64,000 nucleotides of DNA from positions 160,001 through 224,000 of the IMG/VR virus record IMGVR_UViG_3300036762_000065. The stretch is one strand, 5' to 3'. Below, one piece after another: positions 6,346 through 52,350 of the stretch; positions within the stretch are counted from its first letter, which is position 1; each line of letters opens with the position of its first letter. The notes below the pieces were generated by a model. It searched no databases. It saw only the letters and a list, made by a program, of their open reading frames with translations, and had not been told where the DNA came from. The position numbers and the translations under genes were made by a program. Source of the stretch: a virus. Lineage: Duplodnaviria > Caudoviricetes.

Positions 6346-6663
6346 TTGAGAACTATGAAGAGTGAAGGTGTCGTAGATAATGACGAGAAACGACTGGATG
6401 AAGGCAAGTCCGTTCAAGATCGACTTGTTATGCGCGGTAATTGGATTGCCGCAGAAGACAAGTTGCCACCACCCGAAACACCCGTGTTAGCTTTTGTACA
6501 TGGCATAGACATACCCATAGTTTTAGAAATGAGATGGGAAACCTGCAACCCAATGGTTGAACCATATTTTAATGATTTTCTTTATTGGGATAACCCTCAT
6601 GACGATGGGCAAAATTATGAAGACAGGGTATTTGCATGGCAACCACTACCAGAAGACCCTTGA
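6346..6663 (+). CDS. DUF551-like phage protein
   Basis: WI...DKLP....PVL and VFAWQPLPEDP motifs. Confidence 0.75.
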   Translation: MRTMKSEGVVDNDEKRLDEGKSVQDRLVMRGNWIAAEDKLPPPETPVLAFVHGIDIPIVLEMRWETCNPMVEPYFNDFLYWDNPHDDGQNYEDRVFAWQPLPEDP

Positions 6664-6666
6664 TAC

Positions 6667-6714
6667 ACATAACCACAAGCACAACGGCTAGTCCGTTGAT
6701 GAGTAGGGTTAAGT
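6667..6714. mobile_element. attC-like site A
   Basis: ACATAAC-N6-CACAACGG...CCGTTG(A)TG-N6-GTTAAGT: inverted core boxes and an inner stem with one extrahelical base. Confidence 0.55.
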
Positions 6715-7003
6715 GTAAGTTTTGGAAGGTAGGCTTAGAAGCAGCCATCCTTTAAAGAGTGGGGTCTTTGCTCCTTGTGACATGTAACTACCTGGAGCGT
6801 TTTTGTAAGGTAGTGAAAGTTGAACCAACCGCTGACTTTGATCAGAGTTATGTTGGGTAGACAAGTTGCGTGGAGGATAACGCCAAAGAGCTAGTAAGAA
6901 CCTGTGAAATGACATGGGCATAGCGTGAGTTGGAGCGGTAAAAGTCGTACCCAACCTAACAGTCCCTTTAGCGTAACAGCACACCAGAACTTACACCTAA
7001 TTT
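6706..7003 (+). ncRNA. Structured RNA containing a split mimic of the 23S rRNA uL11-binding domain (H43-H44)
   Basis: 6721-6760 aligns without gaps to E. coli 23S nt 1051-1090 and 6971-6988 to nt 1091-1108, with compensatory changes. Closing helix 6713-6725/6984-6996; structured 210-nt insert. Confidence 0.85.
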
Positions 7004-7018
7004 AACTAGGAGATAGCC

Positions 7019-7216
7019 ATGTTTTCAGAAGACGATTTGATTAATGTATGCGTCTACCCAGACGGTACACAAAGCCACAAGCCCCTGCCAGAGAAAGGGG
7101 ATGATTATGAATGGAGGCGCACCATTTACTGTGCGAGGTGCAACTCAGTATTGAGATTGCACCCCGAAGAGCCATTCGCTTCATGTGGATGCGGCACAAC
7201 GGAGTGGTACAAATGA
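7019..7216 (+). CDS. Small Zn-ribbon protein
   Basis: AGGAG RBS; CARC...CGC. Confidence 0.65.
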   Translation: MFSEDDLINVCVYPDGTQSHKPLPEKGDDYEWRRTIYCARCNSVLRLHPEEPFASCGCGTTEWYK

Positions 7217-15920: not shown

Positions 15921-17434
15921 TATACATACACCTCCTGAATTAGGATAGAATTGGACTTACTGATTGCTCCACCCCATCCGCCTTGTGTTGTACGCGCACA
16001 TATCCAATAATCATTATTAGGACCTGAGAACGATCCGCATCTAATGGAATAGGTATGTGACGCTGTGTCTCCTGGAGCGTCCAAAATATCTGCTACCAAT
16101 GACGCATTCTTTATTGGATCGGAGCTCTCTCTTGAACTATATATAGAGCCGCCTATTAGTAAACTATCTCTAAACACTGCGTAACCAAAGCCGGATTGCT
16201 TTTTCTCGTAAGAAGCCATGTGTAAGGTAATTTGCAATCTCAGCTTACTATCGGCTTTTTCTAGTGCAATATTTTTAGAGTAGACTTCTGTACCGTTTGA
16301 TATTGTAGGAGGTGTATCATCAGGTAAATAAGAAGTTCCCCAACGTTCTGCAATATTCTCAATACTAAAATTAGATGTACTAAGGCCCTCTTTACCACCA
16401 CTAGACTCTTTGTTTTTCCAAACACCAGACTCTAGTGTAAGTACATCGCCTTCTTGGGAGTTTGTCAGTGTTACATCAGACAAACCGTTTAACGTAGTTA
16501 TACCGCTACTTGGTCCAGTAGGTCCTATGTCACCTTTCGGTCCTTGAGGACCTGTTGGGCCTGTAATAGATGTACCGTCGTTGCCTTGTGGACCTGTAGG
16601 CCCGATAGCTCCAGTAGGTCCGGGTAATCCCACAGGCCCTATAATACCTTTAGTAACAAACCACGCACTGACTTGTGCTCCTGAAGCACCACCTCCGCTA
16701 CTGACAGTACGGAAATTTAATAAGCTCCCTGCACTAACAACAAGCTTGTTTATATCGTCTTGCGGAAAAGTCTGAATACCGTTACCGGAAGAAGCAACAA
16801 CAGACTTAGAAACAGGAGAAGTGTTTATAAGTAACTCTACTTCGGGGTTTCCGAAGTTAGTGCTTAAGGTCATTGCGTATAAGACACAATCTATAGGAAC
16901 GTATATACCTTGTGCGGCAGGAGCCTTGTCAGATGCACCAAACGACCACTGCATTGCGTTAGCGGAAAGAGCACCTGAACACTCAGCAACAACATTAAAG
17001 AAGCCTCCGCCTCCGGCATCTGCGAAAGTGATGTTTCCTACACCATCGGTTATCATAACCTGTCCACTTTGTCCATCACTAGGAGGCAAAGTAAGTCCTT
17101 GTATCTTGACAGTACCTGTTTCTTTGTTTGTTTCTAATATGGTAGTGCCTTCTGCATTCTTCGCTATAACATTATTCGTAACGACACTAGAAGCTCTTAA
17201 AAATCTACCGCTTAAAAAATCTACTGCATCTGTGCTACTTAAATCAGCCGTACCATCATTTAAAACAATTGAACCTGAATTTAGAGCAGTTATTAAGTCT
17301 GCGCTGCGAGCCAGTAACGATAGAGGTAGATGGTCAAACGATTCCGTTGTATTAGCAGGAATAGAATCTCCAAAAGAAAATTCGAGTTTGGTTTCTGTTA
17401 TATTTTTTAGATTAATAGACATTACGCTCTCCAC
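15920..17434 (-). CDS. Tail fibre-like protein with collagen-like repeats
   Basis: GPTGPQG repeats; LPPSDG..GQV..TDG.G and LNGLSDV fibre motifs. Confidence 0.8.
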   Translation of the reverse strand: MESVMSINLKNITETKLEFSFGDSIPANTTESFDHLPLSLLARSADLITALNSGSIVLNDGTADLSSTDAVDFLSGRFLRASSVVTNNVIAKNAEGTTILETNKETGTVKIQGLTLPPSDGQSGQVMITDGVGNITFADAGGGGFFNVVAECSGALSANAMQWSFGASDKAPAAQGIYVPIDCVLYAMTLSTNFGNPEVELLINTSPVSKSVVASSGNGIQTFPQDDINKLVVSAGSLLNFRTVSSGGGASGAQVSAWFVTKGIIGPVGLPGPTGAIGPTGPQGNDGTSITGPTGPQGPKGDIGPTGPSSGITTLNGLSDVTLTNSQEGDVLTLESGVWKNKESSGGKEGLSTSNFSIENIAERWGTSYLPDDTPPTISNGTEVYSKNIALEKADSKLRLQITLHMASYEKKQSGFGYAVFRDSLLIGGSIYSSRESSDPIKNASLVADILDAPGDTASHTYSIRCGSFSGPNNDYWICARTTQGGWGGAISKSNSILIQEVYV

Positions 17435-52272: not shown

Positions 52273-52350
52273 TGGTGCCCCTCGGCGGACTTGAACCGAC
52301 GACCTACCGATTATGGGTCAGGTGCTCTAACAAACTGAGCTAAAGGGGGC
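52273..52350 (-). tRNA. Degenerate tRNA, CAT anticodon (Ile2/Met-like)
   Basis: GCCCCCTTTAGCTCAGTTTGTTAGAGCACCTGACCCATAATCGGTAGGTCGTCGGTTCAAGTCCGCCGAGGGGCACCA: cloverleaf, TTCAA T-loop and encoded CCA, with several non-canonical positions. Confidence 0.8.

What the first reader, a model, noticed from the sequence alone, without database searches (positions are those of the whole stretch)
6761..6970. 210-nt doubly pseudoknotted domain inserted exactly between rRNA-equivalent positions 1090 and 1091
Seen: the insert is closed by GGG.CT/AG.CCC (6762-6767/6961-6966). Hairpin GCTCC/GGAGC (6770-6774/6794-6798) has a loop ACTACCT (6787-6793) complementary to AGGTAGT (6808-6814), a possible H-type pseudoknot. 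A 12/13-bp helix 6847-6859/6948-6960 is crossed by ACCGCT (6828-6833)/AGCGGT (6934-6939). CTACCT can alternatively pair with AGGTAG (6727-6732) in the H43-like strand. Inference: this is a second functional domain, a conformational switch gating the mimic, or an excisable element whose removal gives an intact 58-nt domain. No group I or group II core is recognisable.
Basis: partly seen in the sequence, partly recalled or inferred. Interest (0 to 1): 0.75.

Follow-up and report, generated by a model that had tools for sequence, protein, structure and literature searches.

The report
Variable arm of phage ribosome-mimic RNA
The 210 bases are a folded, pseudoknotted side arm built into a jumbo-phage RNA that copies the ribosome's L11/GTPase-factor site; related phage RNAs carry arms of 0 to about 380 bases at exactly this spot, so it is an add-on domain and most likely not an intron.

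Summary
Take out 6761-6970 and the flanks read as 23S rRNA 1051-1108, 43 of 58 bases identical to E. coli, split between U1090 and G1091. It is not peculiar to this phage. Of 156 distinct relatives from phage and metagenome contigs, every one has an arm at this site, 22 to 379 nt long. The arm is closed by a covarying 4-bp stem and followed by a UUUG/UUUA linker. One further natural member has no arm.

This arm belongs to a roughly 200-nt architecture shared by at least six diverged lineages. It has a long-range helix P2, a hairpin P3 flanked by UGUA/GAA, a pseudoknot between the P3 loop and the segment just after P2, a hairpin P4, and two recurrent modules.

- ACUACCU/AGGUAGU is real, but it is the P3 stem.
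- The local GCUCC/GGAGC hairpin is not conserved.
- The 12/13-bp helix has limited support and competes with a local hairpin.
- ACCGCU/AGCGGU is untestable here.
- The proposed pairing with H43 is not conserved.

I found no intron core, ORF or rRNA copy in this arm. The parent family is missing from Rfam 15 and the papers I could search. This scan has already noted it in at least 27 other genomes. What the arm does is unknown; I infer a scaffold or second binding platform.

The parts
6713..6725 (+). 5' strand of the H42-like closing stem; pairs with 6984-6996 (13 bp)
   Evidence: Direct reading and MFE fold
6727..6751 (+). H43 copy (rRNA 1057-1081), including A1067 (6737), U1060 (6730) and G1071/C1072 (6741/6742)
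   Evidence: 26/27 identity to E. coli 1062-1088; Rfam LSU hit
6752..6760 (+). Junction UUAAA plus the H44 5' strand G1087-U1090, with A1088 at 6758
   Evidence: Alignment to E. coli 1051-1108
6761..6764 (+). Arm closing stem P1, 5' strand; pairs with 6963-6966
   Evidence: Family-wide covariation: bp1 GC 99, AU 34, UA 18; 3.56 of 4 positions paired against 2.52 with shuffled partners
6771..6781 (+). P2 5' strand CUCCUUGUGAC; pairs with 6865-6875 GUUGCGUGGAG
   Evidence: Starts at arm position 10 in all nine class-D arms, with compensatory changes; RNAalifold recovers the CUCC/GGAG part
6783..6786 (+). UGUA, which with GAA at 6815-6817 matches the bulged-G (S-turn) consensus at the base of P3
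   Evidence: The flanks UGUA(A) and GAA are conserved in 5 lineages while the stem between them covaries. The motif assignment is an inference
6787..6814 (+). P3 hairpin: ACUACCU 6787-6793 with AGGUAGU 6808-6814, and a 14-nt loop
   Evidence: Covaries: L016 AAUGCG/CGCAUU, L127 ACAAUG/CAUUGU, L015 CCUA(G)CC/GGUAGG
6797..6801 (+). Pseudoknot strand GCGUU in the P3 loop; pairs with AACGC 6879-6883
   Evidence: Watson-Crick runs of 5, 7, 7, 8 and 5 within each sequence against 1-4 between sequences; shuffle p from 0.0009 to 0.08
6832..6845 (+). P4 hairpin CUGA/UCAG
   Evidence: A hairpin sits at the same place in L016 (UGAAGA/UCUUCA) and L040 (CUGA/UCAG), read
6865..6883 (+). P2 3' strand (6865-6875), GAU, then pseudoknot 3' strand (6879-6883)
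6890..6924 (+). Module X: GCUA / GUAAGAA / CCUGUG-AAAUGA-CAUGGG / CA / UAGC
   Evidence: RNAalifold predicts 10 pairs, 9 of them with compensatory changes
6929..6955 (+). Module Y: GUUGG [AGCGGUAAAAGUCGUAC] CCAAC, carrying the family-enriched GGUAAAAG motif
   Evidence: GUAAAAG occurs in 16 arms against 2.4 expected, GGUAAGG in 32 against 2.1. L015 and L127 have a local hairpin here; L016 GUAGG/CCUAC covaries
6847..6859 (+). 5' strand of the alternative 12/13-bp long-range helix with 6948-6960; excludes the module Y stem
   Evidence: 7 of 300 shuffles match it. Duplex energies: window -20.3, L016 -11.1, L040 -13.4, L015 -4.8, L127 -5.7
6967..6970 (+). UUUA linker from the arm back into H44
   Evidence: UUUG in 131 and UUUA in 23 of 156 members
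6971..6996 (+). H44 tip and 3' strand (G1091-C1102, A1095 at 6975), then the H42 3' strand
   Evidence: Alignment to E. coli

Best explanation
6761-6970 is the lineage-specific variable arm of a phage non-coding RNA whose core copies the 23S rRNA GTPase-associated centre (H42-H44, the uL11 site). The arm leaves helix 44 between U1090 and G1091 and turns that helix into a three-way junction. It is closed by a 4-bp stem and returns through a UUUA linker, so every nucleotide of the 58-nt core stays in place.

I expect the arm to stay in the mature RNA and fold as its own domain. From 5' to 3' that domain holds:
- a long-range helix P2;
- a hairpin P3 whose loop pairs with the segment just after P2, forming a pseudoknot;
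- a hairpin P4;
- an internal-loop hairpin, module X;
- a GGUAAAAG hairpin, module Y.

Shown here: the position, the closing stem, P2, P3, the pseudoknot, module X, and the spread of arm sizes across the family.

Inferred: the arm acts as a rigid scaffold or a second binding platform beside the uL11/factor-binding face, much as relatives use the same site to display a sarcin-ricin loop copy. I also infer that the whole RNA works off the ribosome as an imitation of that site.
For: Every one of 156 distinct relatives has an arm at this exact site, 22-379 nt, median about 135. One natural member has none.

P1 covaries across the family: GC, AU and UA at bp1, and 3.56 of 4 positions paired against 2.52 for shuffled partners, with a maximum of 2.66 in 500 shuffles. 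The UUUG/UUUA linker is present in 154 of 156.

Nine arms from at least six lineages share one layout. P2 starts at arm position 10, P3 at 26-30 in eight of them (56 in L040, which has an extra hairpin) and, in the five lineages of 204-216 nt, the P2 3' strand starts at 104-113.

RNAalifold, run on plain MAFFT alignments, recovers P2, P3 and module X on its own. Module X keeps 9 of 10 pairs through compensatory changes.

The pseudoknot strands differ completely between lineages yet stay complementary. Watson-Crick runs are 5-8 within each sequence and 1-4 between sequences.

Three relatives carry exact AGUACGAGAGGAA sarcin-ricin hairpins in their arms, which shows this site is used to display functional modules.

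No Rfam intron or other family matches at E up to 10. No conserved ORF lies on either strand.
Against: There are no expression or processing data, so retention of the arm is inferred.

The MFE z-score for the whole RNA is only -1.84.

Only one close homolog of the whole arm exists (L016; 149 nt aligned at 68%). Helices beyond P2, P3, the pseudoknot and module X rest on few sequences.

Two mutually exclusive pairings of 6948-6960 are both compensated in L016 (and direct reading), which a single static fold does not explain.

No partner or function for the arm was identified. Its modules match nothing in E. coli rRNA.
Confidence: 0.72

Rival explanations
1. The arm is removed after transcription, either as a self-splicing intron or, like the intervening sequences of bacterial 23S rRNA, by RNase III without religation. 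That would leave an intact or two-piece 58-nt mimic.
For: Removing it restores a complete GAC sequence. Arm presence and size vary at one fixed site, and an arm-less natural member exists. The 5' flank ends in U, and most relatives end the insert in G (UUUG), as group I introns do.
Against: No group I or II hit at E up to 10. Arms grade continuously down to 22-25-nt hairpins, which cannot be ribozymes. This window ends in UUUA, not G. P1 is only 4 bp and no helix exceeds 13 bp, which makes a poor RNase III substrate. The linker and closing stem are conserved as if structural. Some relatives display sarcin-ricin copies in the arm, which makes no sense for discarded RNA.
Confidence: 0.08
2. The arm is a conformational switch. 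Alternative pairings turn the mimic, or one of the arm's modules, on and off. Candidates are 6948-6960 pairing with either 6847-6859 or 6929-6933, or P3 with the H43 strand.
For: The long-range helix and the local hairpin exclude each other, and both carry the same compensatory change in L016. L040 also has a strong long-range alternative. The 12/13-bp helix is rare in shuffles, 7 of 300. CUACCU can pair with AGGUAG of H43.
Against: The H43 pairing is lost in L016, L127, L040 and the L138 group. L015 and L127 have only the local hairpin. No ligand-sensing family matches. In L016 the long-range helix is shifted 4 nt from the aligned position.
Confidence: 0.1
3. The arm is a tolerated expansion with no function of its own, meaning neutral growth at a permissive site, like some rRNA expansion segments.
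For: Arm size and sequence vary enormously, and an arm-less member exists.
Against: Architecture, spacing and non-helical motifs (UGUA/GAA, GUAAGAA/CA, GGUAAAAG) persist across lineages whose helices have fully changed sequence.
Confidence: 0.08

Closest known systems
GTPase-associated centre of 23S rRNA (H42-H44, E. coli 1051-1108; the 58-nt uL11- and thiostrepton-binding domain)
   Same: The flanks of the insert reproduce it at 43 of 58 identical bases. That includes U1060, A1067, G1071/C1072, A1088, A1095 and the G1091-C1100 and C1092-G1099 pairs.
   Different: rRNA has nothing between 1090 and 1091. Here helix 44 is a three-way junction carrying a 210-nt arm, and the RNA stands alone in a phage.
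rRNA expansion segments, and the intervening sequences of bacterial 23S rRNA (helices 25 and 45)
   Same: Elements of variable size inserted at a fixed point in a conserved RNA core, present or absent between relatives.
   Different: Intervening sequences are long near-perfect stems cut out by RNase III. This arm has a 4-bp base, a pseudoknot and conserved internal-loop motifs. Whether it is processed is untested.
Sarcin-ricin loop (H95) and the bulged-G (S-turn) motif
   Same: The flanks of P3 read UGUA...GAA, close to the AGUA/GAA consensus. Relatives L034, L047 and L084 carry exact AGUACGAGAGGAA hairpins in their arms.
   Different: This arm has no GAGA tetraloop and no sarcin-ricin sequence. 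P3 is a 7-bp stem with a pseudoknotted 14-nt loop.
Group I introns in rRNA and tRNA genes
   Same: An insert at a fixed site of a structural RNA gene, with U before it and pseudoknotted folding.
   Different: No Rfam hit and no P3-P7/P4-P6 core. This window has no terminal G, and relatives have arms far too small to be ribozymes.
GOLLD and ROOL ornate phage RNAs (PMC12286853)
   Same: Large structured non-coding RNAs of phages. Relatives of this one usually lie among tRNA genes.
   Different: No sequence or Rfam match. This RNA has a recognisable rRNA-copy core. Whether it forms oligomers is unknown.

Membership tests
Phage GAC-mimic RNA family (undescribed; defined here by its conserved core) | H43 copy with the GCUUAGAAGCAGCC loop, plus the H44 tip GCGUAAnAGC | tested here: met
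   6732-6758 is 26/27 identical to E. coli; 6971-6980 reads GCGUAACAGC
Phage GAC-mimic RNA family (undescribed; defined here by its conserved core) | An arm starting immediately after U1090, closed by a covarying stem and followed by UUUR | tested here: met
   G6761-C6966 and onward, then UUUA 6967-6970; family statistics
Phage GAC-mimic RNA family (undescribed; defined here by its conserved core) | Found in phage genomes and essentially absent from cellular genomes | tested here: met
   The record is a 241.7-kb virus genome with terminal repeats. There were 28 viral contigs with the 5' (H43) pattern, at least 119 viral with the 3' (H44) pattern and 99 metagenome stretches with the 5' pattern, against 3 hits in one genome each of 185,579 species, 2 of which look like true archaeal rRNA
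Class-D arm (this report) | P2 from arm position 10, P3, a P3-loop pseudoknot just 3' of P2, then module X | tested here: met
Group I intron | Match to the conserved catalytic core (Rfam RF00028) | tested here: not met
   No hit at E up to 10 across 6600-7100
Group I intron | Terminal G at the 3' end of the insert | tested here: not met
   The insert ends UUUA (6970), and the next G is the essential G1091
Group II intron | Domain V and the other Rfam group II models | tested here: not met
   No hit
Self-splicing or processed element in general | A shorter RNA product in vivo or in vitro | not testable with these tools
   No transcript data are available
Sarcin-ricin loop copy (as in some relatives' arms) | An AGUAnGAGAGGA hairpin | tested here: not met
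   Present in L034, L047 and L084 but absent from the window; no further rRNA similarity above chance
   No complement to the P2 5' strand in the P3 loops of L016, L015, L127 or L040; RNAalifold pairs it with 6872-6875

The most novel reading that the evidence does not exclude
The class-D arm is a previously unknown pseudoknotted RNA domain with a job of its own. It might bind a second ribosome-associated or phage protein next to the uL11-binding copy, or join copies of the RNA into a larger particle through its loop-to-tail pairing. Either would make the molecule a two-part imitation of, or hub for, the ribosome's factor-docking region.
Probability: 0.3. Interest if true: 0.78.

Novelty: new variant of a known kind. 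Interest (0 to 1): 0.6.

Why it matters
A phage-made, free-standing copy of the ribosome's uL11/GTPase-factor site is unusual in itself. I found it in neither Rfam 15 nor the searchable papers.

The arm shows that the copy is a platform. One fixed, permissive point in helix 44 carries anything from nothing to about 380 nt. Some phages put an exact sarcin-ricin loop there, and this one puts a conserved pseudoknotted domain.

Working out what the arms bind would show which host or phage factors these RNAs intercept. It would also add natural examples of modular RNA scaffolding on a well-studied fold.

Tried and rejected
A loose arm pattern returned only chance matches, with no family member among 120 loci. 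A strict arm pattern found only L016, so covariation for the whole arm rests on few sequences.

Similarity of the arm to E. coli 16S and 23S stayed at chance level apart from H43. The enriched arm motifs are absent from E. coli rRNA.

Energy comparison could not choose between models. Folds constrained to each model gave -65.2 against -69.8, and the unconstrained MFE was -83.5.

A search for partners of the 6-mer before UAAAAG was uninformative, because 6/6 matches with wobble are common by chance.

I considered and dropped several identities:
- hammerhead-like core, since Rfam gave no hit;
- kink-turn in module X, since the G.A positions do not fit;
- homology between P3 and the sarcin-ricin hairpins of class-B arms, since the architectures are unrelated.

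There is no sense-strand promoter (one promoter-like match, on the minus strand at 6642-6614) and no terminator around the RNA. No ORF is conserved; the 91-aa minus-strand ORF at 6709-6984 is not kept in relatives.

Four literature searches found no description of the family.

Full report
**Context.** The window comes from a 241,706-bp virus record with direct terminal repeats. It is only distantly similar to Pseudomonas phage PaBG. The finding lies in a 355-nt gap between plus-strand ORFs ending at 6663 and starting at 7019. The gap has no sense-strand promoter-like site (the one match is on the minus strand, 6642-6614) and no terminator-like site. No ORF is conserved on either strand.

Window coordinate minus 5670 gives the E. 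coli 23S number up to U1090 (6760), and G6971 is G1091.
- With 6761-6970 removed, the flanks are 43/58 identical to E. coli 1051-1108.
- H43 is 26/27 identical.
- Rfam's archaeal LSU model matches 6724-6774 at E=1.3e-4, and nothing else in Rfam 15 matches.
- A 13-bp H42-like stem, 6713-6725 with 6984-6996, closes the RNA.

**Is the insert a peculiarity of this phage?** No. Pattern scans found the same rRNA copy widely:
- named phages pf16, UNO-G1W1, Milchi, Astolliot, Aeromonas 4_4572 and Xanthomonas XacN1, with no RNA annotated at the site (in Milchi only an overlapping hypothetical-protein CDS) and often inside tRNA arrays;
- 28 viral contigs with the 5' pattern, and at least 119 with the 3' pattern;
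- 99 metagenome stretches;
- only 3 contigs among one genome each of 185,579 species, 2 of which look like real archaeal rRNA.

I extracted 156 distinct members. Every one has an arm between U1090 and G1091, from 22 to 379 nt with a median of about 135. The smallest arms are plain hairpins.

A scan for the uninterrupted form found one phage copy with no arm, L371, lying between tRNA-Glu and tRNA-Met. It also found one genuine enterobacterial 23S fragment. The arm is therefore an optional add-on of variable size at one fixed site.

**The base of the arm.** The base right after U1090 pairs with the last base before a conserved UUUG (131 members) or UUUA (23 members) linker.
- bp1 is GC in 99, AU in 34 and UA in 18.
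- bp3 is GC in 64, AU in 28, CG in 26 and UA in 10.
- On average 3.56 of the first 4 positions pair, against 2.52 with shuffled partners and a maximum of 2.66 in 500 shuffles.

In the window this gives G6761-C6966, G6762-C6965, G6763-C6964 and G6764.U6963.

**The fold inside.** Only L016, a 270-kb viral contig, is alignable over most of the arm: 149 nt at 68%. Eight further arms share the layout (L016 itself, L015, L127, L040 and the four-member L138 group). P2 starts at arm position 10 in all nine. P3 starts at 26-30, or at 56 in L040, which has an extra hairpin. In five lineages the P2 3' strand starts at 104-113 and the arm totals 204-216 nt.

| Element | Window | L016 | L015 | L127 |
|---|---|---|---|---|
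| P2 | CUCCUUGUGAC (6771-6781) / GUUGCGUGGAG (6865-6875) | CCCCUU(G)CUGAC / GUUGGGUGGGG | CUCCC..UGUGAC / GUUGCGGGGAG | GUCCUUG / CAAGGAC |
| P3 | ACUACCU (6787-6793) / AGGUAGU (6808-6814) | AAUGCG / CGCAUU | CCUA(G)CC / GGUAGG | ACAAUG / CAUUGU |
| Pseudoknot | GCGUU (6797-6801) / AACGC (6879-6883) | CGGUACC / GGUACCG | UCUGAAC / GUUCAGA | CUGUAUUU / AAAUACAG |

L040's pseudoknot strands are AUUGA/UCAAU.

RNAalifold, run on an unguided MAFFT alignment, predicts the CUCC/GGAG part of P2 and all of P3.

The flanks of P3, UGUA(A) on the 5' side and (U)GAA on the 3' side, are conserved in five lineages. They fit the bulged-G motif consensus. That assignment is an inference from sequence only.

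The pseudoknot joins the P3 loop to the segment 1-3 nt after the P2 3' strand. Watson-Crick runs are 5, 7, 7, 8 and 5 within each sequence and 1-4 between sequences. Shuffle p-values are 0.08, 0.001, 0.003, 0.0009 and 0.06.

The rest of the arm:
- **P4** (6832-35 with 6842-45) has hairpin counterparts in L016 and L040.
- **Module X** (6890-6924: GCUA, GUAAGAA, CCUGUG-AAAUGA-CAUGGG, CA, UAGC) is predicted by RNAalifold, and 9 of its 10 pairs are kept through compensatory changes.
- **Module Y** (6929-6955) carries GGUAAAAG. Across 131 non-redundant arms, GGUAAGG occurs in 32 against 2.1 expected, CACCCCG in 21 against 0.7, and GUAAAAG in 16 against 2.4. None of these motifs occurs in the same context in E. 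coli rRNA.

*The 12/13-bp helix, 6847-59 with 6948-60.* It is real in the sequence and rare in shuffles, 7 of 300. L016 has GUAGGG/CCCUAC, shifted 4 nt from the aligned position, and L040 has a 15-bp interrupted equivalent. L015 and L127 do not: duplex energies are -20.3, -11.1 and -13.4 against -4.8 and -5.7. This helix excludes the local module Y stem, which L015 (7 bp) and L127 (6 bp) clearly have and which also covaries in L016. I cannot decide between the two, so alternative folding stays possible.

*ACCGCU/AGCGGU.* It has 6 Watson-Crick pairs but overlaps P4 by 2 nt. The L016 complement lies in the P4 loop rather than at the aligned position, and L016 has three equally good 6-mers. I count it as untested rather than supported.

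*CUACCU with AGGUAG of H43.* It pairs in this window (-6.4 kcal/mol). The relatives' P3 strands have no such complementarity.

**Intron?** I think not.
- No group I or II model hits at E up to 10.
- This insert ends in A, not G.
- Arm sizes grade down to 22 nt.
- The stem and linker at the base are conserved.
- Three relatives display exact AGUACGAGAGGAA sarcin-ricin hairpins in their arms. That makes sense only if arms are retained.

This window's arm has no sarcin-ricin copy and no other similarity to rRNA above chance.

**What it does.** Nothing here shows function. The core keeps the nucleotides known to build the uL11 site: U1060, A1088, G1071 and C1072 with the 1091-1100 and 1092-1099 pairs, A1067 and A1095. 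That list is established knowledge of the 58-nt domain, and I checked the window against it by reading. I infer that the RNA imitates that site off the ribosome, and that the arm is a scaffold or a second binding platform.

Earlier notes of this scan describe the same family in at least 27 other genomes and reach similar views. I used their sarcin-ricin lead and checked it myself. I found no paper describing the family.

Noticed in passing
L371:1597-1652: A natural arm-less member of the family. It is a roughly 56-nt GAC copy (GGGAAGUAGGCUUAAAAGCAGCCAUCUUUUAAAGAACGCGUAAUAGCGCACC) between tRNA-Glu and tRNA-Met on a 190-kb phage contig.
   Followed up: partly
L034, L047, L084 (arms of relatives): Exact sarcin-ricin loop copies (AGUACGAGAGGAA closed by a stem) sit inside the arms of three class-B relatives. 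L048 and L114 have near copies (AGUACAAGAGGAA, AGUACAAAAGGAA).
   Followed up: partly
window 16958-17052 (-) and 52276-52349 (-): ARAGORN reports a single 95-nt tRNA-Ile(GAU) at 16958-17052. Rfam reports a single tRNA at 52276-52349. Neither tool finds the other's gene.
   Followed up: no
L004:1530-1661 (Pseudomonas phage Milchi): A 'hypothetical protein' CDS is annotated on the opposite strand across the GAC-mimic RNA. It is probably a mis-annotation. In pf16, UNO-G1W1, 4_4572 and XacN1 the RNA is not annotated at all.
   Followed up: no
L127 (CAZQMI010000163.1): A family member with a class-D arm lies on a 3.9-kb contig binned as a Thermoplasmatales archaeon MAG. The contig is probably misbinned phage DNA.
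   Followed up: no
window 6684-6699: A small hairpin, ACGG-CUAGU-CCGU, lies between the upstream stop codon and the RNA's closing stem. Another first-stage note reads this area as an attC-like site.
   Followed up: no
arms of L027, L051, L068, L087, L113, L030, L097, L049 and others: A different arm class has a conserved GUGCGAAAUG...UGAUGUGC element, apparently a tandem G.A internal loop. A covarying helix (CUGCC/GGCAG, CCGCC/GGCGG, CAACC/GGUUG) encloses it, followed by GUAAAAGUGGG.
   Followed up: partly
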